Of a DNA stretch of 40,001 bases, positions 19,618-38,755 are shown piece by piece (positions within the stretch are counted from its first letter, which is position 1; each line of letters opens with the position of its first letter). A program made the translations under genes and the position numbers. The notes under the pieces are model-generated. The model had not been told where the DNA came from, ran no database searches, and saw only the letters and a program-made list of their open reading frames with translations. This stretch comes from Escherichia coli (GTDB lineage Bacteria; Pseudomonadota; Gammaproteobacteria; Enterobacterales; Enterobacteriaceae): assembly GCA_011601165.1 (NCBI GenBank), contig GCA_011601165.1_4547.1; one strand, written 5' to 3'.

Positions 19618-19631
19618 AACTCTCTCTCCTG

Positions 19632-22954: not shown

Positions 22955-22984
22955 AGTTAACTCCTATTAATGCAAGTGGTAATC

Positions 22985-23018
22985 TTTGAGGCCACCTATC
23001 AGTCGATGACCTCTCGTC
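22985..23018 (-). promoter_or_regulatory. conserved RNA hairpin variant, candidate RNase III site
   Basis: mRNA GAGGTCATCGACTGATAGGTGGCCTC. Confidence 0.4.
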
Positions 23019-23028
23019 TATCACTCTC

Positions 23029-23400
23029 CTACACCTCCACCGCTACAGTGGTCATCTTGGTTACAGTCATCCCACCAGCAAGCTCAACCGCATAGCGTAT
23101 CGCCTCCTCTTTGGACTTGAAGTCCTTTCCTGCAAGGTGGTAAATGTCGCCATTAACTACTTTGTTTGGCCTGCGACTCACTGATACAGCGTTACTGAGG
23201 CAAAGCTCACCCTTTAACCACTGAGCGTGCCAGCGCATTACGCTCTTATCTGATACGCCGAAGTCCCTTGCCACCATCCCCACCATGGATTCAAGTCCGG
23301 AGGTACCGTATTGTGGCTGGCGAACTAAATCATACGCCTTCGCTACTCGGATTTTAAACTCGACTGTGTAGCTGTTGCGGGTTTTCGCGTTGGTGCTCAT
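23029..23400 (-). CDS. early DNA-binding protein with transposase-type helix-turn-helix, 123 aa
   Basis: …YTVEFKIRVAKAY…MVARDFGVSDKSVMRWHAQW… resembles IS3-family OrfA N-terminal HTH; no DDE domain. Confidence 0.6.
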   Translation of the reverse strand: MSTNAKTRNSYTVEFKIRVAKAYDLVRQPQYGTSGLESMVGMVARDFGVSDKSVMRWHAQWLKGELCLSNAVSVSRRPNKVVNGDIYHLAGKDFKSKEEAIRYAVELAGGMTVTKMTTVAVEV

Positions 23401-23434
23401 TAGTATATCCTCTGTTAGTTATATAAGTGACAAT

Positions 23435-23466
23435 CAGTCAGGCCCTTCAGTCAAAGGACCTGTAGT
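23435..23466 (-). promoter_or_regulatory. RNA hairpin, candidate RNase III site (R0.5-like)
   Basis: mRNA CAGGTCCTT-TGACTG-AAGGGCCTG; related copy upstream of gene 0.3. Confidence 0.45.
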
Positions 23467-23476
23467 CTGGCACTCG

Positions 23477-23632
23477 TTACTTATCCTCAGCGTGCAAACT
23501 GTCGTGTATACGCTTGCGGCGATTGTAGACCACTTTCAAGAGACGCATAGTCGCATCGTGGTTCAACTGCCTGGTCTTGACCATAAGCCGGGCGCTAGTG
23601 ACGTGTTGCTGGCAGAGACCATAAGCTATCAT
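23477..23632 (-). CDS. small basic protein, 51 aa
   Basis: ATG overlaps Ocr stop (TGATG); not in ORF track. Confidence 0.4.
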   Translation of the reverse strand: MIAYGLCQQHVTSARLMVKTRQLNHDATMRLLKVVYNRRKRIHDSLHAEDK

Positions 23633-24144
23633 CACTCGCAGTCCTCCTCGGTAGGGTCGAACACTACGTTATCGTTGATGTCTTCGACCTTCAGGTGGCG
23701 ACCTACCGCATAGTGGTCTTTAGCACATGCAATAGCCTCGTAAAGTGATACAGCTTGCTCAATGATTATACCAGTCTTAGCGTCAACTACCCAGTATTCG
23801 TCCTCCTCGTCCTCCTCGTCGCTCTCTTCAGGCTCGAACCAGACCACCTCAGAGCTATTAGACACGTCGTTATATAATGCCTCATAGATGCGAGCTTGCA
23901 GTATACGCGTCACGTCCTTGGTCTCAGGCATCAGCCCGGAGTCTTCAAACTCATGGTCGATACCATCAGCAGCCATCACCGTGAAAATCTCGTGGTAATA
24001 ATGCGGAACCATATCGTCTACGACTTCATGCAGCGCATCGTGGTAGTCATCACCTTCAGCTATTTCATCGTACTGAATGCGCTCGTTAAATGCTTCAACG
24101 GTTGCAGCCAGCAGCTCATAGTATGCATTATCGTTACGTTCCAT
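23632..24144 (-). CDS. 0.3: Ocr-like DNA-mimic anti-restriction protein (T7 gp0.3 family) with C-terminal extension
   Basis: …VPHYYHEIFTVMAADGIDHEFEDSGLMPETKDVTRILQARIYEAL… matches T7 Ocr as recalled; 170 aa against 117 in T7. Confidence 0.85.
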   Translation of the reverse strand: MERNDNAYYELLAATVEAFNERIQYDEIAEGDDYHDALHEVVDDMVPHYYHEIFTVMAADGIDHEFEDSGLMPETKDVTRILQARIYEALYNDVSNSSEVVWFEPEESDEEDEEDEYWVVDAKTGIIIEQAVSLYEAIACAKDHYAVGRHLKVEDINDNVVFDPTEEDCE

Positions 24145-24184
24145 AGTTATATCCTCTCAAAGTTAAGTGTATGTTAGTGACTAT

Positions 24185-24225
24185 CAGTCAGGGCCTTCAG
24201 ATGTAGACTCAAAGACCCTGTAGTT
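24185..24225 (-). promoter_or_regulatory. RNA hairpin, candidate RNase III site (R0.3-like)
   Basis: mRNA CAGGGTCTT…AAGGCCCTG, imperfect stem. Confidence 0.45.
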
Positions 24226-24343
24226 AGTCGCTATCGGCGCACATTAAGAGTTTATCCAGATTTTTAAAGAGCATTCGCATTGGCTGTCGTCGCCGTGCTA
24301 GCCTGTTTCAGTGTTAGGCTTCACCGTTGTTTCAGTGTGGTAC

Positions 24344-24372
24344 ATCGTACAGCTTTTAAAGGAGGCTGTCAA
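24344..24372 (-). promoter_or_regulatory. host sigma70 early promoter (T7 A3-like)
   Basis: TTGACA-17 nt-TACGAT then GTACCACA, matching T7 A3 as recalled. Confidence 0.65.
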
Positions 24373-24490
24373 CCTGTTATTCTTTTACGCGGTGAGTGAC
24401 CGAATTCGACTCACGGCTAGTGCCTTATCCTTGGCTGGTCTCGGGCAGGTTTCTCGGTTCCTATCCCTACGCCATCTTGCTACGTGGTAC

Positions 24491-24520
24491 ATACTACTTT
24501 AAGTCGGTACAGCTTGTCAA
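24491..24520 (-). promoter_or_regulatory. host sigma70 early promoter (A2-like)
   Basis: TTGACA-18 nt-TAGTAT then GTACCAC. Confidence 0.55.
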
Positions 24521-24631
24521 CTACTTTCTGTCATCTGCCTGGTTTTCGTATGACTTATCAGGCTGTCTACTTAACCGGGATGACCCGGCGTCTTCACTAT
24601 CCGGTTGTTGCCGTGTCGTGTTGACGGAAGC

Positions 24632-24661
24632 TATTAAGCCACAGTATGGACCCATAGTCAA
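24632..24661 (-). promoter_or_regulatory. candidate host sigma70 promoter (A1-like)
   Basis: TTGACT preceded by AT-rich tract; -10 element poor. Confidence 0.3.
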
Positions 24662-24780
24662 TAGGTAATTTGAAATAATATTGATTGAGCTATCGTCGGC
24701 CCCATGGTGTAAGAGGATATAGTCTTTGACTAACATGTATTAGACCTTAAGTCTATAGCCATTGTGTCTATTAACTGTAG

Positions 24781-24875
24781 GTCTCTGACTGTAGGTGTTG
24801 GTGTCTTATGGTTGAGACAGTAGGTTAGTGAGGCTGTAGGTTGTGACTTATGGTTGAGACTTATGGTTATACAGA
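24781..24875. repeat. left-end short direct repeat array
   Basis: CTTATGGTTGAGAC twice plus CTGTAGG units on plus strand. Confidence 0.6.
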
Positions 24876-24876
24876 T

Positions 24877-25076
24877 AGGGACTCGGAGAAGACCAATAGT
24901 CCCGACCTATCGTCCCGACCTCCAGCCATAGCCTCAACCTATCGTTGACCTGAAGGCTTGACAGCTGGTCAAACCTTATGATAGACTGGAGGTATAGACC
25001 GAAGGTCTAGGGGTAGGGCCTTTGGTCGGACTGAAGGAGGGCCTATGGGGAGACTTGAGGTTCTTGAACTGTGAGA
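24877..25076. repeat. candidate direct terminal repeat, single collapsed copy (T7-like genome terminus)
   Basis: minus strand TCTCACAGT…CCCCATAGG… and …TCCCTATCTGT resemble the T7 terminal-repeat start and end as recalled; boundaries inferred. Confidence 0.3.
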
Positions 25077-25331
25077 TGTGGTCTCAAACTTTTGGTCCAA
25101 AACTCATCGTCACTACTGTAGGCCACAGCTAGCTTGCTAGCCACAGCCACTGTAGGTCAAGGACCGTATGTCAGGCGACACTAGGATAGACCAATAAGTA
25201 GGATGACCCTAAGTGAGCTTCTCTTAAGGTGTTACCTAAAGTCCTTGACTACAGTAGCTAAGGTCAGTAGAGTAGCGTCAGCTATGAACTGACCTTAGGT
25301 CTTACTTTCGTTGATTGTTACCATTACGGCG

Positions 25332-25490
25332 TTAATTACACTGAGACACCAGAGAACATACGAGAGTCTCGACCCACCCGACCCACTGGCTTCCAGCAGT
25401 AACGCCAGCAGCAAGTAGAACAGCAGCAAGAAACCTGTATGTAGCTCGATTGGTCGCCAGAGCTTTAAGTACAGCTTTGGTCTTTGCCAT
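25332..25490 (-). CDS. 19.5: gp19.5-like small membrane protein, 52 aa
   Basis: MAKTKAVLKALATNRATYRFLAAVLLAAGV…; TYRFL hydrophobic core as in T7 gp19.5 as recalled; SD AGGAGG. Confidence 0.6.
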   Translation of the reverse strand: MAKTKAVLKALATNRATYRFLAAVLLAAGVTAGSQWVGWVETLVCSLVSQCN

Positions 25491-25670
25491 ATGCTACATA
25501 CCTCCTGTATCTATGGTCGGTGACTATCTGTATTGGAGGGATTATGATTAATATCACCCTCCTTCCATCTGTGCAAGCCTTAGGTAAGAACTCGGAGTCT
25601 GCCTCCTAAGGTCTTGCATAAAGTCTGCATATGTATATTCACTACAGTAATACTATAAGTAACCGGGGGT

Positions 25671-25693
25671 CTTCCCTATAGTGATAGTTAAGT
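25671..25693 (-). promoter_or_regulatory. phage RNAP promoter (phiOR equivalent)
   Basis: ACTTAACTATCACTATAGGGAAG, after gene 19. Confidence 0.8.
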
Positions 25694-25787
25694 CCAAACT
25701 CCTTGTAAAACAGTAGGTTAGACTGGTAGTAACTATAGGTTACTAACCGCGTATTCATGCAGCTTTCACCTATAGTTATTCATTCAG

Positions 25788-27551
25788 CTAGTGGAACGTA
25801 ACGTATGACCCTAGCCCAAGCTCGTCGTCCATATCGTGAGTTACCCGGACCCCATTGTCCCAGAACTCAGTGTGGATGGACTCGAAGCCTTTCCGTGGGT
25901 TCTCCATCTGTTCCTCCAACCACTCCTCAGTGACTTCACGTTCACCTTTGTTGGCATCCTTAGCCATAGACTCAACGAAGAACTGCACACCGATAGCCAG
26001 TGCATCAAGTCGGTCATCGTGTGCCAAGGCTCCACGTTCACGAGAGATACGTGTCATCTGGTAGAAGAGAGAGTAGATAGGGTTACGAACACCATCCTTA
26101 TCAGAGGCTGACTGGTAGTCTTGGACGATAGCAGCAGCGTTAACGATAAGTCGGTGAGACCCCATGATAGGCTCCAGAACGTCACAGATGCGGAGTTCTT
26201 TCTGACCCTTACTCTTCACTTCAGTTACAGCAGCAGGATGGATACGGGCCGCTACAGGCTTGAATAGCTCAAGGTACATACCATCCCCGAAGTTGCCCTC
26301 AATGACGTACTCGTTGACCTTCCACTTACGACCAATCTTAGCCAGTGCTTCAAGCGTAGAGTCTTCATAGCCACCACGCATGCCACCAACTTCCATAGCG
26401 AAGATGTAGCCGTTGAGCTGGTACAGTACCGCATAACCAGTTTCATCCTTACCGCGACCACTAGGGTCAATGACCAGAATCTTCTGGGTGTACGAACTGA
26501 AGGCAGAACCTACAGTCTGATACGTGTGGTATGAGTCACCCATGAGTCCAACGTTAGGAACGTCCTCACGCTTGTTCTGAGGGTTAGGCAGCCATTGGTA
26601 GACCATTGGGCTGGATGCTGGGTCCAAGTCTGCTACGATAAGGTCACGGAGCTTCAGAGGGTACTTCTCAGCATCACTTAGGTTCGGGTTAAGCATAAAC
26701 TGTAGAGCGAAACCAGCTTTACCGTATGACAGCTCGCGTTCCTTCAGGTCTGTATCATCGAAGCGTACTTCATCAGTCGGACGCCAGTAGAAGGACTCAG
26801 GGTCCTCTTCAAGCTCTGCCTGAAGCATCGGTGCTAGACGGTCGCCGTAAGACTGCCAGTCCTTCCTGTCGCGTGGATAACGAGCAGGCCAGATAGTAGT
26901 GGTGTACCCACGACCTTCCAACTCACGATACAGGGTCATCTCGTTCTGAGGAGTACCCAGATAGATGATTGTACCTCCCGGCTTCAGGATAGCGTCGAAC
27001 TCTTTCACAAGCTCTGACAGACGGTCTCGTGCGGCCTGAGTCGCTGAGTTGTTCGGAACCTCCACGTCATCGGCAATCAGGATGTCAGCACGACTACCAG
27101 TCAACTGACCAGTGATACCAACGGACTTAACCGAAGGTGAGTGGTCTGGCTTGGCTGGTCCAACGTCGAAGCTGATAACCGCATCTCGCTGCCCCTGCTT
27201 AGGTTTTAGTTCCTGAAGCTGAGGCATGAGGTCGATGATTCGCTTGATGAAGATGGAGTTAGCATCGGCTCGTTCCTTTGAGGCCGACACAATCATGAAC
27301 TTCAAGTCTGGGTTGTTCCATAGCTTCCAGACAACGAAGGCACACGTAATGAAGGACTTCCCTATACCACGGAACGCCTGTAGGATGAAGCGCCTGTTGT
27401 CCCCAGCCGATAGTTTCTTCGCCATGTCAATCTGACAGCGAGTCGGGACTGGGAGTGACAGAGCTTTCCACAGTACGAACAGGAAGAACACGAAGTCTGC
27501 CTTCATACGTGCAGTCATTAGCGCCTGACGCGCCACTAAGTCTTTACTCAA
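25788..27551 (-). CDS. 19: terminase large subunit (T7 gp19)
   Basis: 587 aa; …[24 protein letters not shown]…[10 protein letters not shown]… as T7 gp19 as recalled; apparent TTG start with SD GAGGTG. Confidence 0.95.
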
Positions 27552-27562
27552 TGCGTCACCTC

Positions 27563-28354
27563 TTAAGAGTTAAAGATGCGGTCAACGCGAACAGTCAGGG
27601 AGGTCAGAGTAAGGTCCTCAGACCCTGTAACTGCAATGCCAAGCATGATGCCAGTAGTAACGAACGAGTCGTCTGTATTAGCTATGTAGCTATGGATGGC
27701 TGCCTCACGAATGGTGAATAACTGCTGGTCATCTGTGTCCGTCACGGAAGACATGGTAGTGTTATCGGGTCTACGCAGCTGCACTCGCCACTTATGGGCT
27801 GAGGCTGTAGGGAACTCACCAGCGAACCGAACGACGAAGTTTACACCACTGAGTCCCTCTTTAGCTGGGAACATCATCTTTCCTTCGGAGATAGTAACGA
27901 CGCCGCTGTCCACTCTCTTCACTAAAGGTAGAGTCATTAGGTTAGTGAACTGACCAGCCGCACACACTTGGGTTCCTGACCAGTCGAAGGTATCCAGAGA
28001 ATACTCAGCGTGGGATACAGGACGTGACTCCCGATAAGTATACTCTACCTTAACAAGTCCGACGCCGCTGTTATTCAGCTTGGTGACTTTAAGAATCAGG
28101 AAGTCGTCTTCTGTGGTACCAACCGCTTCCAGACGTACACTGCCTGATTGTAGAGGCCAGCCGCCACCATCGGAGAAATTACCAGTAGCAGACGTACCGT
28201 CGCTTAGTGTAATCCTTGTAGACTCGGCGTTAGCTGGGACCTTCACGTATATTGTACCAGATAACAAGTGACCGGATGCGTTCTTCAGTCCAGATGGGGT
28301 ACCAGTAGCAAAATGCCAAACTACGTCAGTTCTCAAAGTAATAATATTACCCAT
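27563..28354 (-). CDS. hypothetical protein, 263 aa; no T7 counterpart at this position
   Basis: ORF starts 8 nt inside Rz 3' end; Gly/Ser/Thr/Val-rich, predicted beta-rich; no motif recognised. Confidence 0.6.
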
Positions 28355-28799
28355 TGTCTTTCTCCTTGTCTTGTTGAAGTTTTCGAATAGTATCCTGTAG
28401 TGCTTTAATCCAAGCGTCCCCTTTCAGTCCGATGGAGATAAGACGTTTAGCATCTCGTTCGTCAAGTTCGGCGTAACCATCAATGATGCATCGACCGTCA
28501 CTTTGCGGGGTTCCACTCGTAGGTTTGACTCGGATGCGCAACCGCTTATTGTCAGACTGAAGGTCAGCAATAATCCTATCAGTGCTACCTTCCAGCGAGG
28601 ACATTTCGTCCTGAAACCGTTTGGACACCTTGTTGACTTCAGCTTGGACAGCAAGTCTTGTATCCTCCGATGCCTTAAGATTCGAGGTGTATTCTGCATT
28701 GATCTTAGCCTCCCACTTGTTGTTAGCGGTGTGATAGCCACCAGCAAACATCACTGCTGCAAGTAACCACGGAGCCGCTCTCTTTAAAAAATCGAGCAT
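28347..28799 (-). CDS. 18.5: i-spanin Rz (gp18.5)
   Basis: 150 aa, N-terminal TM helix then coiled coil; Rz1 embedded. Confidence 0.8.
   Translation of the reverse strand: MLDFLKRAAPWLLAAVMFAGGYHTANNKWEAKINAEYTSNLKASEDTRLAVQAEVNKVSKRFQDEMSSLEGSTDRIIADLQSDNKRLRIRVKPTSGTPQSDGRCIIDGYAELDERDAKRLISIGLKGDAWIKALQDTIRKLQQDKEKDNG
28424..28699 (-). CDS. 18.7: o-spanin Rz1 (gp18.7), embedded in Rz in another frame
   Basis: lipobox LTISGC; C-terminus …LMVTPNLTNEMLNV… as T7 Rz1 as recalled; start set at ATG 28699 with SD GGGAGG. Confidence 0.7.
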   Translation of the reverse strand: MQNTPRILRHRRIQDLLSKLKSTRCPNGFRTKCPRWKVALIGLLLTFSLTISGCASESNLRVEPRKVTVDASLMVTPNLTNEMLNVLSPSD

Positions 28800-28854
28800 A
28801 GTTGCCCTCCCGGTTTATCAGATTTCACGTAGAGTCTCCTCCACTAGTTAGTGT

Positions 28855-28896
28855 TAACCATAAAGGCCACTACATATAGTAATGACCTTGAGTCTA
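28855..28896 (-). promoter_or_regulatory. conserved RNA hairpin, candidate RNase III site (R18.5 equivalent)
   Basis: mRNA GACTCAAGGTCATTACTATATGTAGTGGCCTTTATGG. Confidence 0.5.
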
Positions 28897-28900
28897 ACGC

Positions 28901-29164
28901 TTACTGCACTCCATATCCAGTGTCATTATCTTCCGTAGCGGATAGCACCTTATCGTACTCTGCGTTCAGGGCCTCCATATCAGCAAGCGTCTTCTCGTCA
29001 ACAGACACCTTGCTTAGCACGAAGTTGTGACGAGCCAGTAGCTTCTCAATGGCGTTGTAAAGCTGAGGTGAACGCTTAGAGTCATCCCGCAGGTCTTGCA
29101 GCATGAGTCGAGCACGTTCAGTATCTAGCATTAAGAGGAACTTCTCTAAGTCCATCTGCGTCAT
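28901..29164 (-). CDS. 18: terminase small subunit (gp18)
   Basis: 87 aa ORF at the T7 gene 18 position, coupled to holin (ATGA). Confidence 0.7.
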   Translation of the reverse strand: MTQMDLEKFLLMLDTERARLMLQDLRDDSKRSPQLYNAIEKLLARHNFVLSKVSVDEKTLADMEALNAEYDKVLSATEDNDTGYGVQ

Positions 29165-29358
29165 GTTTTACCACCCCCTCCTTTAATCGTTTTGTAGACT
29201 AGCACACCAATCTGGACAACGGTGTACGCGATAGCTGCAACGTAGAACCACTCGTTCAGTGTAAGTCCGAAGAAGAACCGACTGGCACCATCAGCCGCAG
29301 CGGTCCCGACGATAGGAGAGGCTTTAAGGACCTCATTCTTGAAGTCTAACTCAATCAT
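29161..29358 (-). CDS. 17.5: holin (gp17.5)
   Basis: …KASPIVGTAAADGASRFFFGLTLNEWFYVAAIAYTVVQIG… matches T7 gp17.5 as recalled. Confidence 0.85.
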   Translation of the reverse strand: MIELDFKNEVLKASPIVGTAAADGASRFFFGLTLNEWFYVAAIAYTVVQIGVLVYKTIKGGGGKT

Positions 29359-29472
29359 AAAACCTCCAGTTTAAAGCGGGTCGTCCGTGACCATAAGTTG
29401 TTACCATACGTTGGTCAGCGTGTAGTTAGCCTCTACCTCCACAACCTTCGATGACGACATTCCGCTCTAATT

Positions 29473-31917
29473 TTAATTGTACCAACTTGCCTGACTCTGG
29501 GACTTGCTATCACACCTTAATGCGAACGTGTAATACGCAGCCGCCCGCCCGGGGAACGTAAATACAATCCTTGCTGATTGTTTGTCACCAGGTAGAACAG
29601 GCTGCCAGTCAAATTCACCAAACAAGTTAGGGTTGTAGTCTGCGCTATGAATAGTTGCGGTGTCAGGTGCAATAATATCATCACCGTACATCTTTGTTAT
29701 CCGTAACGAACTAGAGCCATCGAATCTCTGCAGTACATACCGGGCGTGCCCGTTAGGATTTGTTCCGTTGTTTGTTGACCCCCTAACTGTAATGTCTAAA
29801 TACGCAACCTGAGTATCATAAAACGACGTTATTTGAGCCTGCCATGTCTGCATACCATCCGGCATAGGAACGGTGACCGTACCCAGTATAGCCGCAGCCG
29901 GAGTTCTTGATACATCAGAACCCTGAGGATACGGGACGTGGGTAATGAAACATTCAGTTTCTGCTGGTCTACCGTTGAACAACGCCGCTTGGATAACATC
30001 CTTCACCCGCGCTGGCTTAATCCGGATGCCTGAAACGTAGATGTTTGTAGCATTTGCTCCATAGGTACTTATGTAAATGGTTTTCCATCCAGCACCTACC
30101 AATGTACCCGCCCATGCGTCCAGTCCTTTTGAGTTTGTTCGACCGCCCTTGACCTGATAGCCGGAGGTTTCGGTAATGGCTTTACCCTGATTACGTTTTA
30201 GTGTGTCTCTGTTGCGCGCCGCTGGTACCCGTGCTGCATACTCAGGGAGCTTTTCGTTAGCCTCTTCAGCAATGGTTACATATGCACCGTCAAGGATCCC
30301 GACTATATCCAGCGTAGCCAGTTCACATCCTAGATAAAAACTGAATGAAATTCTGGCTGTGGAATTAGCGGCAAAATCAGCAACACCGCCATTGGTCAGG
30401 TACGAATTACGCGTATAGGCCATCGTGGCACCTTTATTCCAGAACCCAACTTTTGACGAGCTTCTGCCGACCTGCTGAGAATAAAGTCCGGTTACTGGGA
30501 CGATGTTTTGCACATAACCACCAGCCAATACGAATGAGGCCACTGCTCGACCGTATTTGAAATAACCCTGCTTATTGAAATGCGCCCCATCTGAGTATAT
30601 ACCAGCATATTCAGCATATTGCGTGACAATTTCTGATTCAAATACCGGGCACCCATAAACCTCGGCGATTGACTGTACAAACTGATAATATGGTGCATTA
30701 AAGTTATTACCGGAGTTAAATTGTAGTGCCGTTGTTGTGTGTAAAACTACGCCACAACCCCAATCAATGTATCTCTTTACTAGTTTCTCGATGTACTCAC
30801 AGAACTGTTCAAATGTTGAACCTAACTTACCCTCTGTGTCATTAATGCCGAGCATTATATGAGCGACATGTGCATTTGGGTTAGTTGTCCATCTATCAAA
30901 ACTTGCCTTTGCAGTGTCACCGGAGAAACCACGGTTAATAACAGTTACCGTCGAGTTGGTCATTGCATTTAAAGAATTTTGCAGTTGTTTAGGATATGTG
31001 ATAGGTGCATGAGTTGCCCAATCGCCGTTGTCTGCCGGTACTTTGTCCGCCGAGTTATTGTCATAGCCCGCCGTCAGGCTATCACCAACGCAGACTATTG
31101 TAAGTGGCTCGCCAGAGCGTAAACGTTTATTAGCCTGACCAAGTAACCTACGGTTTTTGTGCCGATATTTAGCTGACGCCAAGCGCTGAATCTCTGCCCC
31201 AATACTATCATCCTGATAAGACTTAGAGTCGTCATAACCCACCAGCCCAGCGCCAGTTCCTTCATTTAAAGCCGCTCTCAACGAGGCATCACCAACGCTA
31301 ACCCATGCACCCAAACCAACGCCGCCGGTTGAAGCTGGGGTTGAACCAGCAGGCACTGTTTTTGGTAGGCCACCATCCCAGCGGTAATACTCACCATCCG
31401 CTTCCCATAGCAGGACCTCGCTCCATGTTGTAACGTTGAAGCCTTTCTCGAAGGAGCGACGGGTAATATAGCCAAGTAGACCTGCCTTGACACTCGAAGA
31501 GATTCGTCGAGCTTCGTCCTCGCTATCCTTAGCGCTAGCAGCAGAGATACCAGCAGCATCGGCATACTCCTTCGCTAAGTCAACAGTTTGGTCTCGACCT
31601 TCTTCTGCAATATGGATAGCCTGAAGCTCTGCATTGGTCAGGTCACTAGCTGTCAACACTGAGCCATTCCTGAAGTCTACCACTAAGTCAGTCCCAGTCT
31701 GACGGTGAATACGAACGATGTCGAAACCTGATTGGTCAACCAACATCTCAATCATCGTTGGGTTAAGGAATCGGTAATCTCGACCAACTTCCAGTACACG
31801 GTTCAGGGTAGGGTTAGAGCTATTCACCAGCGTAACAACAACAAACGTTCTGGCTAGGTAGTCGAACTCAATCCTGTACTGAGTGTTTCCTGAAGGGAAT
31901 TGTGTAATCGTGGACAT
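29473..31917 (-). CDS. 17: tail fiber/tailspike: T7 gp17-type N-terminal anchor plus GDSL/SGNH esterase domain and C-terminal beta-rich region
   Basis: N-terminus …FDYLARTFVVVTL…LVVDFRNGSVL… as T7 gp17; SGNH blocks GDSLT (near 31069-31083), GINDT, DGAHF. Confidence 0.85.
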   Translation of the reverse strand: MSTITQFPSGNTQYRIEFDYLARTFVVVTLVNSSNPTLNRVLEVGRDYRFLNPTMIEMLVDQSGFDIVRIHRQTGTDLVVDFRNGSVLTASDLTNAELQAIHIAEEGRDQTVDLAKEYADAAGISAASAKDSEDEARRISSSVKAGLLGYITRRSFEKGFNVTTWSEVLLWEADGEYYRWDGGLPKTVPAGSTPASTGGVGLGAWVSVGDASLRAALNEGTGAGLVGYDDSKSYQDDSIGAEIQRLASAKYRHKNRRLLGQANKRLRSGEPLTIVCVGDSLTAGYDNNSADKVPADNGDWATHAPITYPKQLQNSLNAMTNSTVTVINRGFSGDTAKASFDRWTTNPNAHVAHIMLGINDTEGKLGSTFEQFCEYIEKLVKRYIDWGCGVVLHTTTALQFNSGNNFNAPYYQFVQSIAEVYGCPVFESEIVTQYAEYAGIYSDGAHFNKQGYFKYGRAVASFVLAGGYVQNIVPVTGLYSQQVGRSSSKVGFWNKGATMAYTRNSYLTNGGVADFAANSTARISFSFYLGCELATLDIVGILDGAYVTIAEEANEKLPEYAARVPAARNRDTLKRNQGKAITETSGYQVKGGRTNSKGLDAWAGTLVGAGWKTIYISTYGANATNIYVSGIRIKPARVKDVIQAALFNGRPAETECFITHVPYPQGSDVSRTPAAAILGTVTVPMPDGMQTWQAQITSFYDTQVAYLDITVRGSTNNGTNPNGHARYVLQRFDGSSSLRITKMYGDDIIAPDTATIHSADYNPNLFGEFDWQPVLPGDKQSARIVFTFPGRAAAYYTFALRCDSKSQSQASWYN

Positions 31918-31963
31918 TATGCCTCCTTTGTGATTTAAACGGAGACCTATGGTAGCGCCTCCA

Positions 31964-31986
31964 GTTTCCTATAGTGATAGTTTAGT
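31964..31986 (-). promoter_or_regulatory. phage RNAP promoter (phi17 equivalent)
   Basis: ACTAAACTATCACTATAGGAAAC. Confidence 0.8.
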
Positions 31987-34900
31987 CCTTGATGTGGATG
32001 CCTTGCTCCTCAAACGTTCCAAGCAACAGCTTCTGGGTAATGGGGTCGTTCGGAACCAGTTCACGGAACGTATTATACATCCCGGTCATGTAGTCACGCT
32101 CGTTGACACGAGTATCAGCCTTTAGGTAGCCAGCCAAGTTGTAAGCCGAAGCGCCAACGTTAGCAGCATATCCGAAAGCTGGAACCTGCTCCAAGAAGTT
32201 ACCAACAACATTCATCACAGGGTCACTTGTAGCTGCACCATACGTGATGGCACGTTCAGGCTTCTCTGTAGGTGAACGAGGTAGGATAGACGAACGGAGC
32301 ATCTTAGTGTCCTCGTACCCAGCGATACCACCCAGAATGTTAGCTACCCCAAGTGGTCCACCGAGATGTGAACTACGGGACAGAGCCGCATATCCAATCA
32401 TCGTCGGGTCCAGAGCTTGCTTGAGGTAGTCACGGTCACGACCATCCTGCATAGCGTAAGCCTTGATATGTGCCTGAGCCATGTAGTAGATACCAGCAAG
32501 ACCCATAGAGATCACAGTGGACAGAGCAGCATCCATCGCTCGGTTGTTCTTCGTGGCGTTATAGAAGGTTCGCATGGTACGCCCATTGATAGACTTGATG
32601 ACGAAGTTCTTAAACTGAAGGACAGCCTTAGCGCGAGGACCATAAGCCTTGGCGTCCATGTTTGACAGCTTGTGGGGCCGGAGTAACGTTTCGTCAGCGA
32701 TGGTGTCACCCATACGCCACAGGTCCATAGCCCTTGGGTCCTGACTGAACGCCTTCTTATCCTTGATGGTATACTTCCCGTCTGGACCACGAGTCACTGA
32801 CTCACGGATTAGGGACTTAATACCCTTCCACTGCTCGTCAGAGATACCAGCGGTCTTCAGCCAGCGGTCATCGAACTTACGCTTACTGCCAGTCAGACTA
32901 TGCTCCACGATGTCAGACAGGAAGCCTTGACGTCCAGCATCTAACAGGTAGTTTGTCGTACCGTTGAGGACTTTAGTGAACGGAGAGCGTACTGCAAGTT
33001 CACCAGTGTAATACTTGGCAGAGCCTAAAACCGTAGCCGTAGGTTTACTCAAGGCGCTGTAAGACCGCAGACGGTCAATGACATCCTGTTTAGACGGACG
33101 GATTGAGTCATCCAGTTCCTTACCGAAGATAACATTGTGCAGGTCCTTAATCTCTGAGGCCCCTACCTTCTTGTTACGGAATGCTAGGTCACGGAAAATC
33201 GGGACTCCATGCAGCATTGCACGGACGTTACCACGGGCCAGCATACCACCAATCTCCGTTAAGTTCTGAACACCCATGTAGGCATTCTTAGCGAAGAACG
33301 ATAGGTCTGTCATTGTGCGCATCACTGTAGCGAAGGCTGCATCATCAGCACCATCACGTCGAGCACGACCAGTGAGAATCTTCAAGGTGTCACGTAAGGT
33401 CGAGACCTCACCTTTCAACTTACCGTCATCCCCGGCCTTGTTCATCATGGTCTCAACCAAGTCCTTCATGTCCTTCGTGGTCTTTCCTGTACCAGCCATG
33501 ATAGCGATGTCCCCATTAACTCGACGGTTGTACGCCGGAACAATCTTGTCCATGTCCCACTCACGCAGGTTGTTGACACTGAAGGTCTGGCCGTTAGGCA
33601 GGACTATTGACATATCGCTATCGAACAGGTTACGAGCCTCAAGGAAGCTGTTGTTCTCCAGACCCACCAGACCGTTGATGTTCTCTTCCATTACGGAGGA
33701 GCGTTCGAACTGCTCGGTGTGAGAGATACCGTAAGCCTTATCATTGGCGTACTTATCGACCGCAGCCGCAAGTCCTTCTGGAGTCAACGTAGGGTCAGCC
33801 TCTAATAGTGCCTCGTCCACACGTTTCTTGACTTCAGGTCGAGACGCATAGCTGGTAAGCCATGACTTCTTGATTGCCTCCTGCAACGCCTCTGGACTCC
33901 CAAGCTCCTTGATGTACAGCTCCTTCATCTGGTGGCTATACACATGCGGGACGTAGGTTCCCTTGAAGCGGCTACCCGGAAAGATAGACTTAGCGTCTGG
34001 ACGCCCAAACATAGACGGGTTCTCCATCATCTCACGCTTGGCGTCAAACTGGTTCTTCAGCAGGTCATATACTTTCAGCTCTCCCGGAGTCAGTTCAGCC
34101 TTCAGGTTCCCACTACCATCTTCGATAGCCATAGACACGCGCTGATAGATGTCTTGACGGAATGCGCCAGAGTCTCGCCAGAATGCTGTCTGGAAGTAAG
34201 GGTCCTTGAGTGCCTCAGTAATAGCATCGTCGATGTCGTTGTAGAACCGATGGTCCACAGCACGAAGTCTCTCGAATACGTCTGACGCTGTGGTCCCGAT
34301 TTTACCTGAAGCCCCAGACTGCATACCAGTTGGTGAACGCACTAAGTCAGCAGCTACTCCCCGAATCTCAGGGTTCTCAGACCGAAGCAGCTTCAGGCCA
34401 ATCTCAGTCAGACCACCAAGGTTCACACCAGCAGCGGCACGTTCAGGCTCAATCACTTCGTCAAAGACCTTACGTGTCTTAGGGTTAAGAGGGTTCTCAC
34501 CAATCAGGATTGAACCATCTTCAAGTCGTACACTGCCCGGCTCATTCGGAACGTCAGCGAACTTAACGCCTTGATGACTAAAGGTCTGCTCACCTTCCTG
34601 AATGGGGAGACGAGACAGGTCTTGACCATCAACGTTACGAGCGGTCTCACGAGCTTCCAGACGTGTAGCTGGACCAGCGAACTCGTTAGTGTTTCGTCCT
34701 AAGGCTCTGCCTAGCCCATCAGCGATAGCAGTCATACCACCACCGAAGAGAGCACCACCAAGGATAGCTTCAGCCACATGAGCATCACCGCCAGCCACTG
34801 AGGTACGGGCCATCTCAGACACACCAGCCAGTGCCCCAGATTGAGCAGCCACGGTGAACATCTTGTTGACCAGCTTGCCACCTTTACCCACCTGTCCAGC

Positions 34901-35869
34901 GATAGGAACGTAAGTCAGAGGGTCCACGCCAGCGCCAATCACACCAGCCGCCAGTTGAGCGCCAGTCCCAGCCTTGGCCTTCTCTTGGTCCAACTTCTGG
35001 TTCTCAAGCGCCAAGTTAATAAGCTCGGTCAGGTTCTGAGGAGAGCCGCCAGTAATGACTCCGTAATACTGAGGCAGCACCCCAGCGTTACGAATCTGGT
35101 CCAGCTCCTCACGCGACCACTTATGGTTGTTCCATCTGGTCGGGTTGAACACATCACCAATGACATCCAGTGAATCCTCAGTCTGGCCAGCTCGGATAGC
35201 CACGCCGACCATAGAGTTCTTCACTTCAGCTTCTGTAGCCGCACCGAAACCGAACCACGTAGAGCGATCCTCTCGCTCCTGCAGGGTCTCTCCAGTAGCC
35301 TTATAGAACATCTCACCGAACGATTCGTTGGGAGCTTCAGGTGCTTGACCCTCAATGTTCAGACCAGCAGCGGTCGGAAGGTTCTCACCCAGAGCTACTT
35401 TAGGTTTAGCCTTGAGTCCTTCCGTGAGTGCGTCAAATACGTTAGCGCTTACTGGTGGAGTCTTTGGGCTGATACCGTTGAGTGCTCTTGCGACTCCCTG
35501 CTGATAGACTTCAGGGTTGTACCGGGAGCCTGTCTCATGGAAGCTGATAGCTTGCACCAGAGAAGACAGGGTGTCCGGGTTCGAGAGGTCGAGACTCTGG
35601 GTAGCTGGAATACCAGTCGCAGCCACCACTGAGTCAATATAAGCCTGAGTGTCGTTCTCATTAGGAGGTGCCCATCGGTTGATAATCTTCTCGATGGAGT
35701 CATAACCTTGGCGACCGTAGGACAGCAGGTTTTTACCTAAAGCTCGGACGCCAGACTCTGGACTATCGAAGGTGACGAATGCGCCATCATCTCCAGTCAT
35801 TCCTTCCCATTGGTCCTTACTTACCCGGATGTTCCCCGGATTGTTATTGCGAATACCTCGAGTCGCCAT
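31982..35869 (-). CDS. 16: internal virion protein D with N-terminal lytic transglycosylase domain (gp16)
   Basis: about 1295 aa; start reset to ATG 35869 (MATRG) with SD AAGGAG; size and position as T7 gp16. Confidence 0.9.
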   Translation of the reverse strand: MATRGIRNNNPGNIRVSKDQWEGMTGDDGAFVTFDSPESGVRALGKNLLSYGRQGYDSIEKIINRWAPPNENDTQAYIDSVVAATGIPATQSLDLSNPDTLSSLVQAISFHETGSRYNPEVYQQGVARALNGISPKTPPVSANVFDALTEGLKAKPKVALGENLPTAAGLNIEGQAPEAPNESFGEMFYKATGETLQEREDRSTWFGFGAATEAEVKNSMVGVAIRAGQTEDSLDVIGDVFNPTRWNNHKWSREELDQIRNAGVLPQYYGVITGGSPQNLTELINLALENQKLDQEKAKAGTGAQLAAGVIGAGVDPLTYVPIAGQVGKGGKLVNKMFTVAAQSGALAGVSEMARTSVAGGDAHVAEAILGGALFGGGMTAIADGLGRALGRNTNEFAGPATRLEARETARNVDGQDLSRLPIQEGEQTFSHQGVKFADVPNEPGSVRLEDGSILIGENPLNPKTRKVFDEVIEPERAAAGVNLGGLTEIGLKLLRSENPEIRGVAADLVRSPTGMQSGASGKIGTTASDVFERLRAVDHRFYNDIDDAITEALKDPYFQTAFWRDSGAFRQDIYQRVSMAIEDGSGNLKAELTPGELKVYDLLKNQFDAKREMMENPSMFGRPDAKSIFPGSRFKGTYVPHVYSHQMKELYIKELGSPEALQEAIKKSWLTSYASRPEVKKRVDEALLEADPTLTPEGLAAAVDKYANDKAYGISHTEQFERSSVMEENINGLVGLENNSFLEARNLFDSDMSIVLPNGQTFSVNNLREWDMDKIVPAYNRRVNGDIAIMAGTGKTTKDMKDLVETMMNKAGDDGKLKGEVSTLRDTLKILTGRARRDGADDAAFATVMRTMTDLSFFAKNAYMGVQNLTEIGGMLARGNVRAMLHGVPIFRDLAFRNKKVGASEIKDLHNVIFGKELDDSIRPSKQDVIDRLRSYSALSKPTATVLGSAKYYTGELAVRSPFTKVLNGTTNYLLDAGRQGFLSDIVEHSLTGSKRKFDDRWLKTAGISDEQWKGIKSLIRESVTRGPDGKYTIKDKKAFSQDPRAMDLWRMGDTIADETLLRPHKLSNMDAKAYGPRAKAVLQFKNFVIKSINGRTMRTFYNATKNNRAMDAALSTVISMGLAGIYYMAQAHIKAYAMQDGRDRDYLKQALDPTMIGYAALSRSSHLGGPLGVANILGGIAGYEDTKMLRSSILPRSPTEKPERAITYGAATSDPVMNVVGNFLEQVPAFGYAANVGASAYNLAGYLKADTRVNERDYMTGMYNTFRELVPNDPITQKLLLGTFEEQGIHIKD

Positions 35870-35873
35870 TATG

Positions 35874-38156
35874 TTACTCCTTACCAATTAGTACGTTTGC
35901 GATACCCTCCAGTGAGACGTCATTGTACATCCCACCGCGCTTCTCGATGTTGGCCTCTCGGTCAGCTCGACGTTTGTCACCAGCAGCTTTAGTCCCGACG
36001 ATACGCGCTCGCTTGTTAGCGTCACGTTCTGCCTGAGCATATGCGGCATCCTGTGCCTTCTGCTGTTGTTCACGGTACAGTTTACCAACCAGTTCTTTAT
36101 CGTATCGAATGCGTAGGGTTCCGTTAGCGCTCTGCAGGAAGACCGAGCCGTTCTGCTCAACTACAGAGAGCTGAGAGTTCACTACCCAAGGATTAGTCTT
36201 GATGAGCTGCTTGCGAGCTATGTCGATAATGTCTCGACCCACCTGCCAAGACTCAGGGTTATCCCCGACCATAAGTTGATGTTTGGACACCATGCCTATG
36301 GACTTACCATCCTGACCCTCATCGGTGAAAGTCACGGTGTTTTCATTCAACCACTTCTGGGTATTCTGAGTTGCAGCGTCAGCGTTACCTGTCCTGTAGT
36401 ACCATGAGTCCCATACTTTTCGTGCAGTCATCTTCAATTCAGTCGGTATCCGTGAGAGTTGAGTCTCCTTTGAGTCATTCGTCAGCTCTCTCCACTCCTT
36501 GTCTGCCTCACTTCGCATCTCACGCGATAAACTTGCAGCTTGCTTATCAGCTTCAATCAGCGTCTGAGTGTCCAGACCTATCTTGTCCATCTGATCGAAA
36601 GTCGTGAACAATTGGGCCTGCTCAGGGTAGAGGGCCGCGAAGCTGGAAGGGTCCTGAGTGTAGACACGACGAAGAGACTCGAAGCGTTTCATCTTGTCTG
36701 GGTCGTACTGTCCACGGATGACCGCAGCTTGCCACTCACCAGCAGCATCCTGAGTCAGCGTCTGGAAGGCATTACGGAAAGGACCATTGTTAGTATCAGC
36801 CCTCAACAATGCCACCTTCTGAGCGTCCTTAGCAGCCTCAGGGATGTCCATCTGGTCAATCTGCTGTAGCTTGGCAGACGCATAGTTGTTCATGTCTGAA
36901 CGCTTGAACTCTCCTGTAGCTTCAGAGACCGGAAGGTCCTCATAGTTGGTGGACACATTGTCCCCAGCCAGACGTCGCTGATACACTTGGTCAATGACCA
37001 GTTGCTTGTTCTGGGTCTGGATTAACTTCGTGTTCTCCTTCGCCTGTTCAGCAGACTTACGCTTGACCGCTTCCAGTAGTGTGGCTTCTGCGTTAATGAG
37101 CATCTGGCGCTGAGGAGTGAGTTCTTCACCGGGTTGAAGCTGGTTGTTCTGCTCCTTGAGTTTCTGAATCTGGGCAAGACCAATGGTTGGGTCATCCTGA
37201 AGAATTGCAGACTGAACGCCTAACGCCAAGTCTTCCTGATACTTAGCCACCAGTTTATACTCAGTACCTTGGGCCTCAACCATAGCAGCATTGAAGATGT
37301 CAGGTCCTACAATCTCTTCGATGGTAGCGTCAACACCATTAAGGGTGATACGCTCGCCACGGACTTGCTGTAGGAAGTTTGAGCCTCCTGACTTCTGGAT
37401 TGCGTCACGGACCGTCTGGGTGATGACCTCTCGTGCTCTCTGGTCCGAAGGTATAGCAGCAGTCGTCAATCCATCCCTAAGGTAGGCCATGAAGGTCTTT
37501 CCAGACTCAGGCGAACGCATCAGGTCCCCATCGTTAAGGAACGAGTTCATCTCAATACGAGTGTTCAACATTGCTGTCTCTTCAGACTGCTTGCTGAAAT
37601 ACTTATTGAAAGACCCATAGATGGCGATGTTTCGGTCTGTGATGTTATCGTTGAACCCGCGCTGGAAGAACTCATCTGTAGGGTTAATACCTGCCTCTTC
37701 AGCATAGGACTTAGCGGCGTCCTGAAGTCGCTGGTGGCGATACTCTTCCATCTCCTGACGTGTACGGAACTCACCGTTCTGAATCTTAACGTTAATCTCG
37801 TCATCCACAGCAAAGGCAGCGTTACGACCTGTCTTGACTCGAAGTGCTTCCATAGCGTAAGGGTCATCCTGATATAGCAGTGTGCCGTTCTGAATAGCCT
37901 CACGTCTTTGCTGAGGTGTCAGCTTACGGATAATCTCGTTAGACCGCTCGTCGGCCCGTGTCTTCTCCTCGTCTTTGAACTGCTTGTATAATCCAGTACC
38001 AGACTCAACGAAGTTGGTTAACGCCCTAGCCAGACCTGAGTCACCAGTTGGAGCCTGAACGCTGGCTGCTTGATAGTTGACGGCGATAGTTTTACCCGGC
38101 GCTCTGCCACGACCCATAGTCCGATTAGCCAGAGCTGATTCAATATTACTAGCCAT
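35874..38156 (-). CDS. 15: internal virion protein C (gp15)
   Basis: 760 aa ORF at the T7 gp15 position, similar length. Confidence 0.85.
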   Translation of the reverse strand: MASNIESALANRTMGRGRAPGKTIAVNYQAASVQAPTGDSGLARALTNFVESGTGLYKQFKDEEKTRADERSNEIIRKLTPQQRREAIQNGTLLYQDDPYAMEALRVKTGRNAAFAVDDEINVKIQNGEFRTRQEMEEYRHQRLQDAAKSYAEEAGINPTDEFFQRGFNDNITDRNIAIYGSFNKYFSKQSEETAMLNTRIEMNSFLNDGDLMRSPESGKTFMAYLRDGLTTAAIPSDQRAREVITQTVRDAIQKSGGSNFLQQVRGERITLNGVDATIEEIVGPDIFNAAMVEAQGTEYKLVAKYQEDLALGVQSAILQDDPTIGLAQIQKLKEQNNQLQPGEELTPQRQMLINAEATLLEAVKRKSAEQAKENTKLIQTQNKQLVIDQVYQRRLAGDNVSTNYEDLPVSEATGEFKRSDMNNYASAKLQQIDQMDIPEAAKDAQKVALLRADTNNGPFRNAFQTLTQDAAGEWQAAVIRGQYDPDKMKRFESLRRVYTQDPSSFAALYPEQAQLFTTFDQMDKIGLDTQTLIEADKQAASLSREMRSEADKEWRELTNDSKETQLSRIPTELKMTARKVWDSWYYRTGNADAATQNTQKWLNENTVTFTDEGQDGKSIGMVSKHQLMVGDNPESWQVGRDIIDIARKQLIKTNPWVVNSQLSVVEQNGSVFLQSANGTLRIRYDKELVGKLYREQQQKAQDAAYAQAERDANKRARIVGTKAAGDKRRADREANIEKRGGMYNDVSLEGIANVLIGKE

Positions 38157-38167
38157 TAGTCCTCCTC

Positions 38168-38755
38168 TTAGCTATGACCTGTAGGTGTGCCTTTGGCAGC
38201 ACTAATTGGTGCAGCACCGCCAGAGCTGGACGCTCCAGAGATAGATTTACCAGCAGCGTACCCTTGCATCCCGGCGTTAGCAACATTAAGTGCATGAGCT
38301 AGTGGGCTGGTCTTGATGATTTTACCTTGACCACGGATAGCAGACTTGGTGTTCTCAATGTTGGCGATACGGTTCCCGAAGATAGCCGCATAGTCACGGT
38401 TGTAGCTTTCGGTAATCCCGGCCCTCTCCTTGACTGTGTCTCCCGCGACCTGACGTTCAATCCTGTCCATAGAGTTACCTTCCAGACCTGACTCAGCTAC
38501 CGCAGCTCGGACCATGCCCTGATTGCGGATACCGTTCAACGTGGTCTCTGTCAGTTCAGCCATCTGCTGTTCCTTCAGGTCTCGCTCCTGCATCTTCAGG
38601 TTGGCGTCAGAGTAGTTCATCTGCTTAACCATCTCCTGAGCCTGACGGTTCTGAGCGTCGATAGCAGCACCCTCAGCTTTGGCCTGACTAGAAGCTGACA
38701 TAGTGGCACCAGCTACAGCCATAATACCCATGCCGATACTTACTGGCTCGCACAT
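38168..38755 (-). CDS. 14: internal virion protein B (gp14)
   Basis: 195 aa, starts MC…, resembles T7 gp14 as recalled. Confidence 0.85.
   Translation of the reverse strand: MCEPVSIGMGIMAVAGATMSASSQAKAEGAAIDAQNRQAQEMVKQMNYSDANLKMQERDLKEQQMAELTETTLNGIRNQGMVRAAVAESGLEGNSMDRIERQVAGDTVKERAGITESYNRDYAAIFGNRIANIENTKSAIRGQGKIIKTSPLAHALNVANAGMQGYAAGKSISGASSSGGAAPISAAKGTPTGHS

What the first reader, a model, noticed from the sequence alone, without database searches (positions are those of the whole stretch)
29473..31917. Tail fiber carrying a GDSL/SGNH esterase domain
The N-terminal 150 residues are the T7 gp17 anchor, but the rest is unrelated to the T7 fiber. It contains the SGNH blocks GDSLT, GINDT and DGAHF, followed by a roughly 350-aa beta-rich region. 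This suggests a receptor-modifying enzyme such as a polysaccharide deacetylase, as described for tailspikes of capsule-specific phages (for example Vi-specific phages, from memory).
Basis: partly seen in the sequence, partly recalled or inferred. Interest (0 to 1): 0.5.

Follow-up and report, generated by a model that had tools for sequence, protein, structure and literature searches.

The report
Phage tail fibre with acetyl-esterase domain
This is the tail fibre of a T7-like E. coli phage whose outer part is an intact SGNH acetyl-esterase that most likely strips acetyl groups from the host's surface sugar chains during attachment; this kind of fibre is already well characterised in related phages, so the finding is correct but ordinary.

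Summary
ORF 29473..31917 (minus strand, 814 aa) is gene 17 of a Kayfunavirus (K1F-group, T7-like) genome, and GDSLT, GINDT and DGAHF sit at residues 278, 357 and 443. The catalytic residues Ser280, Gly333, Asn359, Asp443 and His446 are invariant in 41 homologues down to 23% identity. Sequence and predicted fold match solved esterase fibres: Kayfunavirus SFP21A Gp09 (9LNA), Shigella phage B2 Gp48 and Moo19 Gp82, and G7C gp63.1. Moo19 and B2 spikes hydrolyse p-nitrophenyl acetate, and G7C gp63.1 deacetylates O-antigen. The last 349 residues are carbohydrate-binding-module-like beta-sandwiches. The esterase cassette is 82-92% identical to spikes on a siphovirus-like contig and on P22-like E. coli prophages next to gtr O-antigen genes, so O-antigen is more likely than capsule as substrate. 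The Vi-phage analogy is functional only, because Vi06 carries a different esterase family (SASA). The exact protein is already in NCBI under a generic name. Verdict: a new member of a known kind, of low interest. The substrate glycan remains unidentified.

The parts
31968..31980 (-). Phage-RNAP (T7-group) late promoter core CTATCACTATAGG directly upstream of gene 17
   Evidence: There are 11 matches in the window, all on the minus strand, against 0.8 expected by chance.
31922..31928 (-). Ribosome-binding site AAGGAGG, 4 nt before the ATG
   Evidence: Read directly from the sequence.
29473..31917 (-). Gene 17: tail fibre/tailspike, 814 aa plus stop codon
   Evidence: ORF listing. phrog_8460 tail fiber, E 4e-124. 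The exact protein is WP_166429070.1 'phage tail fiber protein [Escherichia coli]'.
31573..31917 (-). aa 1-115: T7 gp17-type N-terminal adaptor that anchors the fibre to the tail
   Evidence: PF03906 covers 10-114, E 1.2e-15. T7 gp17 chains 7boz/8dsp match 6-115. The stretch is 92-96% nt identical to many Kayfunavirus fibres.
31471..31572 (-). aa 116-149: predicted alpha-helical linker (probable coiled-coil neck)
   Evidence: Helices 111-148 in the model, at low pLDDT. This is an inference.
31288..31470 (-). aa 150-210: Tail_spike_N (CBA120 TSP1 / G7C gp66-type) domain. The recombination junction lies at its C-terminal end, at about aa 200-215.
   Evidence: PF18668 covers 154-210, E 1.9e-19, with pLDDT 84-89. 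Kayfunavirus DNA identity stops at gene nt 633-648. Identity to P0001 rises from 53% to 93% across aa 151-240.
31108..31287 (-). aa 211-270: linker plus a long helix (239-267) leading into the esterase domain. The second junction, against P22-type spikes, is at about aa 262-270.
   Evidence: Model secondary structure. Windowed identity to P0003 jumps from 53% to 87-97% at aa ~270.
30523..31107 (-). aa 271-465: SGNH/GDSL hydrolase (acetyl-esterase) domain. Ser280 (31078-31080), Gly333 (30919-30921), Asn359 (30841-30843), Asp443 (30589-30591), His446 (30580-30582).
   Evidence: PF13472 and PF00657 both score above their gathering thresholds. The catalytic residues are invariant in 41 sequences. 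pLDDT is above 90. Foldseek matches TesA, Axe2 and sialate O-acetylesterases with TMt 0.6-0.79. Codons were checked.
29476..30522 (-). aa 466-814: two predicted beta-sandwich (CBM35/CBM6-like) domains, probably for glycan binding and/or trimer packing

Best explanation
Gene 17 encodes the receptor-binding tail fibre of a lytic Kayfunavirus (T7-like) phage of E. coli. It is presumably trimeric. The N-terminal ~115 aa dock it to the tail, followed by a helical neck and a Tail_spike_N domain. The distal 600 aa are a horizontally acquired cassette made of an SGNH acetyl-esterase and two CBM-like beta-sandwich domains. The cassette binds an O-acetylated surface polysaccharide of the host, most likely the LPS O-antigen. 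It hydrolyses the O-acetyl esters using Ser280 as nucleophile, His446/Asp443 as base, and Gly333/Asn359 as the oxyanion hole. The sugar backbone is not cut. By analogy with G7C gp63.1, this bind, deacetylate and release cycle gives specific, directional movement of the virion through the O-antigen layer to the outer membrane. Infection should therefore depend on the acetylation state of the receptor. Shown here: domain architecture, conservation of the catalytic residues, fold, homology to active esterase spikes, and the mosaic origin. Inferred: enzymatic activity of this particular protein, trimeric state, substrate identity, and the processive role.
For: Pfam finds SGNH/GDSL domains above threshold. 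Ser280, Gly333, Asn359, Asp443 and His446 are invariant in 41 homologues down to 23% identity. HMMER matches solved fibres across the esterase and beyond: 9lna_A (SFP21A Gp09) over aa 2-689 at E 5e-138, 9d84_A (B2 Gp48) over 154-696, and 9d80_D over 154-678, with GDS, ND and DGxH aligned. Foldseek top hits are B2 Gp48, Moo19 Gp82, SFP21A Gp09 and G7C gp63.1. Moo19 and B2 spikes hydrolyse 4-nitrophenyl acetate, and infection fails on hosts lacking O-antigen O-acetylation (PMC11654681). G7C gp63.1 deacetylates the O-antigen, its activity is essential, and non-acetylated mutants are resistant (PMC10743462). Gp55 of PP99, a podovirus related to SP6 (genus Zindervirus), deacetylates O-polysaccharide (PMC6989608). 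The Lederbergvirus g341c spike of Salmonella Anatum is 38% identical over 99% of the cassette, and phage c341 is the classical O-antigen deacetylase (PMC5380687). The closest cassette copies (82-92%) sit on P22-type E. coli prophage spikes between mnt/arc and gtr O-antigen glucosylation genes. The C-terminal domains resemble carbohydrate-binding modules. The gene has its own late promoter and RBS.
Against: No activity or substrate data exist for this protein. Identity to the experimentally tested spikes is only about 25-38% in the distal part. The trimer was not modelled, and active-site geometry could not be inspected. Kayfunaviruses often target capsules (K1F-type endosialidases appear among the matches), and SGNH receptor-binding proteins associated with capsule types exist in Klebsiella prophages (PMC13123978). 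O-antigen versus capsule is therefore not settled. The only serogroup hint, one prophage copy labelled O28/42:H37, is anecdotal, and I could not retrieve that O-antigen's acetylation status.
Confidence: 0.72

Rival explanations
1. The enzyme and architecture are the same, but the substrate is a capsular K-antigen or another exopolysaccharide (colanic acid, ECA or similar), not the O-antigen. This is what the first reader suggested with the Vi-phage analogy.
For: Kayfunavirus fibres with the same adaptor carry capsule enzymes such as endosialidases and lyases (annotations). Vi phages deacetylate the Vi capsule (PMC5380687; Vi06 fibre with a SASA esterase). SGNH receptor-binding proteins of Klebsiella prophages correlate with K-loci, and two of them are active esterases (PMC13123978).
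Against: Every characterised homologue detectable by sequence or fold acts on O-antigen (G7C, Moo19, B2; g341c if it is the c341 of the 1976 study). The nearest copies lie in P22-type prophages beside gtr or O-polysaccharide acetyltransferase genes. The Vi06 esterase belongs to a different family and shows no detectable similarity.
Confidence: 0.2
2. The SGNH domain is a catalytically inactive, lectin-like binding module, so the fibre only binds its receptor.
For: There is no direct evidence. Enzymatically dead receptor-binding domains do exist in other phage families (general knowledge).
Against: All five catalytic and oxyanion residues are present and invariant across the family. Homologues are active.
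Confidence: 0.03
3. The domain acts as a lipase, phospholipase or thioesterase on outer-membrane lipids or on lipid A acyl chains, or as a peptidoglycan O-acetylesterase, and not on a surface polysaccharide.
Against: Those matches reflect only the shared SGNH fold (18-25% identity). The specific relatives are polysaccharide deacetylases. The domain sits at the distal end of a fibre and is fused to CBM-like domains. Peptidoglycan is handled by the transglycosylase-type N-terminal domain of gp16, encoded next door (the homologous gene is annotated so).
Confidence: 0.03

Closest known systems
Shigella phage SFP21A tail fibre Gp09 (PDB 9LNA; Kayfunavirus)
Shigella phages B2 Gp48/Gp49 and Moo19 Gp82 tailspikes (PDB 9D84, 9D80/9D81; N4-like Schitoviridae)
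   Same: They share the Tail_spike_N, SGNH and beta-domain core. They have demonstrated 4-nitrophenyl acetate esterase activity and depend on O-antigen O-acetylation (PMC11654681).
   Different: The virion platform and N-terminal attachment differ. B2 uses a two-protein spike complex. Identity is about 25-30%.
E. coli phage G7C gp63.1 (PDB 4QNL)
   Same: This is the founding SGNH esterase tailspike. It deacetylates the O-antigen without cutting it, and the activity is essential for infection (PMC10743462). Foldseek gives E 6e-21.
   Different: By sequence only the Tail_spike_N domain is detected (aa 154-221). Structural identity is 15%. It is part of a branched gp63.1/gp66 fibre on an N4-like phage.
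Salmonella phage g341c tail spike (Lederbergvirus; probably the phage c341 of Iwashita & Kanegasaki 1976) and P22-type E. coli prophage spikes (P0003 cluster)
   Same: The g341c spike is 38% identical over 99% of the distal cassette. The E. coli prophage spikes are 82-86% identical from aa ~265 to the C-terminus. Phage c341 base-plate parts deacetylate Salmonella Anatum O-antigen (PMC5380687).
   Different: They use a P22 head-binding N-terminal domain (PF09008) in place of the T7 adaptor. They are temperate phages with adjacent O-antigen-modifying genes. That g341c and c341 are the same phage is my inference from the names and the host.
Vi-capsule acetyl-esterase fibres of Typhi phages (e.g. 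Vi06)
   Same: They are T7-like phages with a T7-type adaptor fused to a carbohydrate acetyl-esterase, and they use the same strategy of deacetylating without depolymerising.
   Different: The esterase family is SASA/PF03629, not GDSL/PF13472. No pairwise similarity exists beyond the adaptor. The substrate is a capsule.

Membership tests
SGNH/GDSL hydrolase superfamily | Block I GDS(L) with the nucleophilic Ser | tested here: met
   G278-D279-S280-L-T is present. G278, D279 and S280 are invariant in 41 sequences.
SGNH/GDSL hydrolase superfamily | Block II Gly (oxyanion hole) | tested here: met
   S332 and G333 are invariant.
SGNH/GDSL hydrolase superfamily | Block III GxND with the oxyanion Asn | tested here: met
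   G357-I-N359-D360 is present. N359 and D360 are invariant, and G357 is at least 90% conserved.
SGNH/GDSL hydrolase superfamily | Block V DxxH (catalytic Asp and His) | tested here: met
   D443-G-A-H446 is present, and both D443 and H446 are invariant.
SGNH/GDSL hydrolase superfamily | Profile match above the curated threshold, and an alpha/beta/alpha fold | tested here: met
   PF13472 scores 50.8 bits against 32.9 and PF00657 scores 28.5 against 23.6. Foldseek matches TesA, Axe2 and other GDSL enzymes with TMt 0.6-0.79.
SGNH/GDSL hydrolase superfamily | Esterase activity | not testable with these tools
   This needs a p-nitrophenyl acetate assay. Homologues are active.
G7C gp63.1 / Moo19 / B2 / SFP21A-type esterase tailspikes | Virion-attachment module followed by Tail_spike_N, an SGNH domain and distal beta-sandwich domains in one chain | tested here: met
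   Pfam architecture. Full-length sequence and fold matches.
G7C gp63.1 / Moo19 / B2 / SFP21A-type esterase tailspikes | Homotrimeric assembly | not tested
   Only monomer models were made. The PDB homologues are deposited as multi-chain entries (3 chains for 9lna).
G7C gp63.1 / Moo19 / B2 / SFP21A-type esterase tailspikes | Deacetylation of the host O-antigen, and dependence of infection on receptor acetylation | not testable with these tools
   This needs host, LPS and NMR work. Context supports O-antigen.
T7 gp17-type tail fibre (Autographiviridae) | N-terminal gp17 adaptor domain, and gene position between gp16 and the holin/gp18 | tested here: met
   PF03906 covers 10-114. The gene order is gp16, gp17, holin, small terminase, Rz.
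T7 gp17-type tail fibre (Autographiviridae) | T7-like coiled-coil shaft and C-terminal tip domain | tested here: not met
   T7 gp17 matches stop at aa ~115. The remainder is the esterase cassette.
Vi-phage SASA-type acetyl-esterase fibres | SASA (PF03629) esterase domain | tested here: not met
   The window protein has no PF03629 hit. Vi06 has one. BLASTP similarity is confined to aa 1-113.

The most novel reading that the evidence does not exclude
The 600-aa esterase plus CBM cassette is a recently mobile host-range module. Near-identical copies (82-92%) are plugged into three unrelated virion platforms: a lytic T7-like Kayfunavirus, a siphovirus-like phage and P22-like prophages. It may recognise a so far uncharacterised O-acetylated E. 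coli O-antigen, possibly O28ac/O42, so that this phage's host range is switched by the acetylation state of the receptor, including acetylation conferred by prophage-encoded acyltransferases.
Probability: 0.4. Interest if true: 0.3.

Novelty: new member of a known kind. Interest (0 to 1): 0.2.

Why it matters
It gives a precise functional annotation to a protein that public databases call only 'phage tail fiber protein'. It predicts that this phage's host range depends on O-acetylation of a surface glycan and not on backbone cleavage. It is also a clean example of one receptor-binding cassette exchanged between lytic podoviruses, siphovirus-like phages and P22-like prophages. That is useful for host-range prediction and for engineering receptor-binding proteins, but it does not open a new question, because esterase tailspikes are biochemically and structurally established.

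Tried and rejected
(1) Searching papers by PDB code (9LNA, 9VVR, 9D84, 9D80) returned only unrelated text. A search for SFP21A found only a taxonomy summary.

(2) I tried to infer the receptor serogroup from complete E. coli genomes. Megablast and blastn of the cassette found a single IS-truncated remnant in strain CUPF12, which was uninformative. The O28ac/O42 O-antigen structure and its acetylation could not be retrieved from the held literature.

(3) Homology to the Vi-phage esterase was tested and rejected.

(4) I tested whether the neighbouring 263-aa ORF (27563..28354) is an accessory of esterase fibres. Its homologues lie near the esterase fibre genes in B2 and UTK0001. However, Kayfunaviruses CLB_P1 and EPr2 carry the ORF with fibres that have no SGNH domain, so this was rejected. 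The ORF has no Pfam or PDB sequence match.

(5) The epsilon15 esterase-tailspike preprint could not be opened.

(6) The N-terminal 150 aa of the AlphaFold model have low confidence, because the alignment I used lacked T7-type adaptors. I relied on Pfam and PDB sequence matches for that part.

(7) A check for overlapping contig ends found none.

Full report
**Observation**

The window carries an 814-codon ORF at 29473..31917 on the minus strand. It starts at an ATG four bases after AAGGAGG. About 50 nt further upstream is the motif CTATCACTATAGG. That motif occurs 11 times in the window, always on the minus strand, against 0.8 expected by chance. It is therefore the phage-RNA-polymerase promoter family of this genome, and gene 17 has its own copy at 31968-31980.

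**Genomic context**

The window is a circularly permuted, essentially complete Kayfunavirus (K1F-group, T7-like) genome, with all genes on the minus strand. Its first 25 kb are 92-94% identical over about 90% of their length to many E. coli Kayfunaviruses. The local gene order is:
- gp16, the internal virion protein (31982..35887)
- this gene
- holin (29161..29358)
- small terminase (28901..29164)
- Rz-like spanin (28347..28799)
- an extra 263-aa ORF (27563..28354)
- large terminase (25788..27551)

**Anatomy of the protein**

- **Adaptor.** Pfam finds Phage_T7_tail over residues 10-114. T7 gp17 chains match 6-115. The anchor homology is therefore about 115 residues, not 150.
- **Neck.** Residues 116-149 are predicted helices.
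- **Tail_spike_N.** PF18668 covers 154-210, E 1.9e-19.
- **Esterase.** Lipase_GDSL_2 covers 276-452 (E 3.8e-13) and Lipase_GDSL also matches. Both score above their gathering thresholds.
- **Distal region.** Residues 466-814 are almost entirely beta strand.

In an alignment of 41 homologues with identity to the query down to 23%, these columns are invariant: G278-D279-S280 (block I), S332-G333 (block II), N359-D360 (block III) and D443 and H446 (block V). The same motifs align residue for residue with those of solved esterase fibres. The catalytic machinery is therefore intact and under constraint.

**Relatives with solved structures**

phmmer against PDB sequences gave the following:
- 9lna_A aligns over residues 2-689 at E 5e-138.
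- 9d84_A aligns over 154-696 at E 1e-78.
- 9d80_D aligns over 154-678 at E 7e-75.
- 4qnl (G7C gp63.1) matches only the Tail_spike_N domain.
- 9vvr_A, a spike with a different distal part, shares only the near-identical first 225 residues.

The full-length AlphaFold model has mean pLDDT 78.6 and exceeds 90 over most of 250-550. By Foldseek it matches B2 Gp48 (E 2e-53), Moo19 Gp82 (2e-43), SFP21A Gp09 (2e-42) and G7C gp63.1 (6e-21). Classical SGNH enzymes follow: TesA, acetylxylan esterase Axe2 and sialate O-acetylesterases. SFP21A is itself a Kayfunavirus, with its fibre gene at the same genome position.

**The C-terminal half**

**What homologues do (from papers)**

- Purified Moo19 and B2 spikes hydrolyse 4-nitrophenyl acetate. 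Both phages fail on a host mutant that lacks the enzyme adding the O-acetyl group to GlcNAc and also lacks the gtr locus (PMC11654681).
- G7C gp63.1 deacetylates the O-antigen of E. coli 4s without cutting it. The activity is essential, appears processive, and non-acetylated mutants are resistant (PMC10743462).
- Gp55 of PP99, a podovirus related to SP6 (genus Zindervirus), deacetylates its host O-polysaccharide (PMC6989608).
- Base-plate parts of Salmonella Anatum phage c341 deacetylate the O-antigen, according to Iwashita and Kanegasaki 1976 as cited in PMC5380687.
- The tail spike of Lederbergvirus g341c (host S. Anatum) is the closest annotated phage homologue of the distal cassette, at 38% identity over 99%. 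That g341c is the c341 of the 1976 work is my inference.

**Mosaic origin**

DNA identity to other Kayfunavirus fibres (92-96%) stops at gene nucleotide 633-648, about residue 213. No phage record in the collection matches the remainder at the DNA level. In the 5.8-billion-cluster protein database the distal 600 residues have four close relatives:
- P0001, 92% identical
- P0002, 87%
- P0003, 86%
- P0004, 82%

P0001 lies on a 46-kb contig with a tape-measure gene, so it is siphovirus-like. P0003 has a P22 head-binding domain and lies between mnt/arc and gtr O-antigen glucosylation genes in E. coli prophages. Windowed identity places the junctions at about residue 200-215 against P0001 and about residue 262-270 against P0003. 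One esterase cassette is therefore mounted on three virion platforms.

**Substrate**

Several observations favour O-antigen: the prophage context (gtr genes, and an O-polysaccharide acetyltransferase next to the g341c spike), and the fact that every characterised homologue acts on O-antigen. Capsule is not excluded. Kayfunaviruses often carry capsule enzymes, and SGNH receptor-binding proteins linked to capsule types exist in Klebsiella prophages (PMC13123978). One prophage copy is labelled E. coli O28/42:H37. I could not obtain that O-antigen's acetylation status, so this remains a lead only.

**The Vi-phage analogy**

The Vi06 fibre consists of a T7 adaptor plus a SASA (PF03629) esterase. 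BLASTP similarity to the window protein is confined to residues 1-113. The analogy holds for strategy but not for family.

**Novelty and verdict**

The exact 814-aa sequence is already in NCBI as WP_166429070.1 / NHQ98147.1, 'phage tail fiber protein [Escherichia coli]', on a contig recorded as 40,001 bp. Its family has solved structures and published biochemistry, including a member of the same genus.

It is a new member of a known kind. The only open points are the substrate glycan and the recent cross-platform transfer of the cassette. I put 0.72 on an O-antigen-type surface-glycan deacetylase fibre, 0.2 on a capsule or other exopolysaccharide substrate, and a few percent each on an inactive binder or a lipid-directed enzyme.

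Noticed in passing
window 27563..28354 (-): A 263-aa ORF sits between the Rz-like spanin and the large terminase. It matches only phrog_17779 (unknown function) and has no Pfam or PDB sequence match. Only a few Kayfunaviruses carry it: CLB_P1 gene 18.8, annotated 'putative protease' (94%), P762 (85%), Bas105 (partial) and Providencia EPr2 (48%). Its C-terminal ~145 aa are 30-36% identical to small ORFs in N4-like phages (B2, UTK0001, pSb-1) and in Aeromonas phages. It does not co-occur specifically with esterase fibres.
   Followed up: partly
window 1..40001, e.g. 3925, 4925, 8158, 17691, 19323, 22387, 25675, 31968, 39244 (-): The window is a circularly permuted, near-complete Kayfunavirus genome deposited as a contig of an E. 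coli assembly. All genes are on the minus strand. There are 11 copies of the phage-RNAP promoter core CTATCACTATAGG (9 exact). The contig break appears to fall inside the tail tubular protein B gene, and the two ends do not overlap exactly.
   Followed up: partly
L009 (g341c) 5108-7030; L002/L003 2762-4231; L005 10136-11167: In temperate relatives the esterase tailspike gene lies beside O-antigen-modifying genes. In g341c it is an O-polysaccharide acetyltransferase, in E. coli P22-like prophages gtr glucosyltransferase genes, and in a decayed CUPF12 prophage an acyltransferase lies about 2.3 kb downstream of the spike remnant. A phage that removes acetyl groups to infect while also carrying an acetyltransferase for lysogenic conversion is a pairing worth examining.
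   Followed up: no
L005 6974-7843 (E. coli CUPF12 chromosome NZ_CP182159.1): This is the only match among 5,426 complete E. coli genomes. It is an IS3-truncated fragment encoding just the C-terminal beta-domains of a related spike (77% nt identity), annotated as a hypothetical protein, inside a degraded prophage between yciA and yciB.
   Followed up: partly
window 28424..28747 (-): An ORF lies nested in a different frame inside the Rz-like spanin gene (28347..28799). It is probably the embedded Rz1-type outer-membrane spanin, which CLB_P1 and Vi06 annotate as gene 18.7.
   Followed up: no
L006 1062-3340 (Escherichia phage CLB_P1): In CLB_P1 the fibre is split in two. A 325-aa gp17 carries only the adaptor and the Tail_spike_N domain. 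It is followed by a separate 430-aa gp17.1 with no Pfam domain. This suggests that in this genus the distal receptor-binding part can be a separate polypeptide docked on the adaptor.
   Followed up: no
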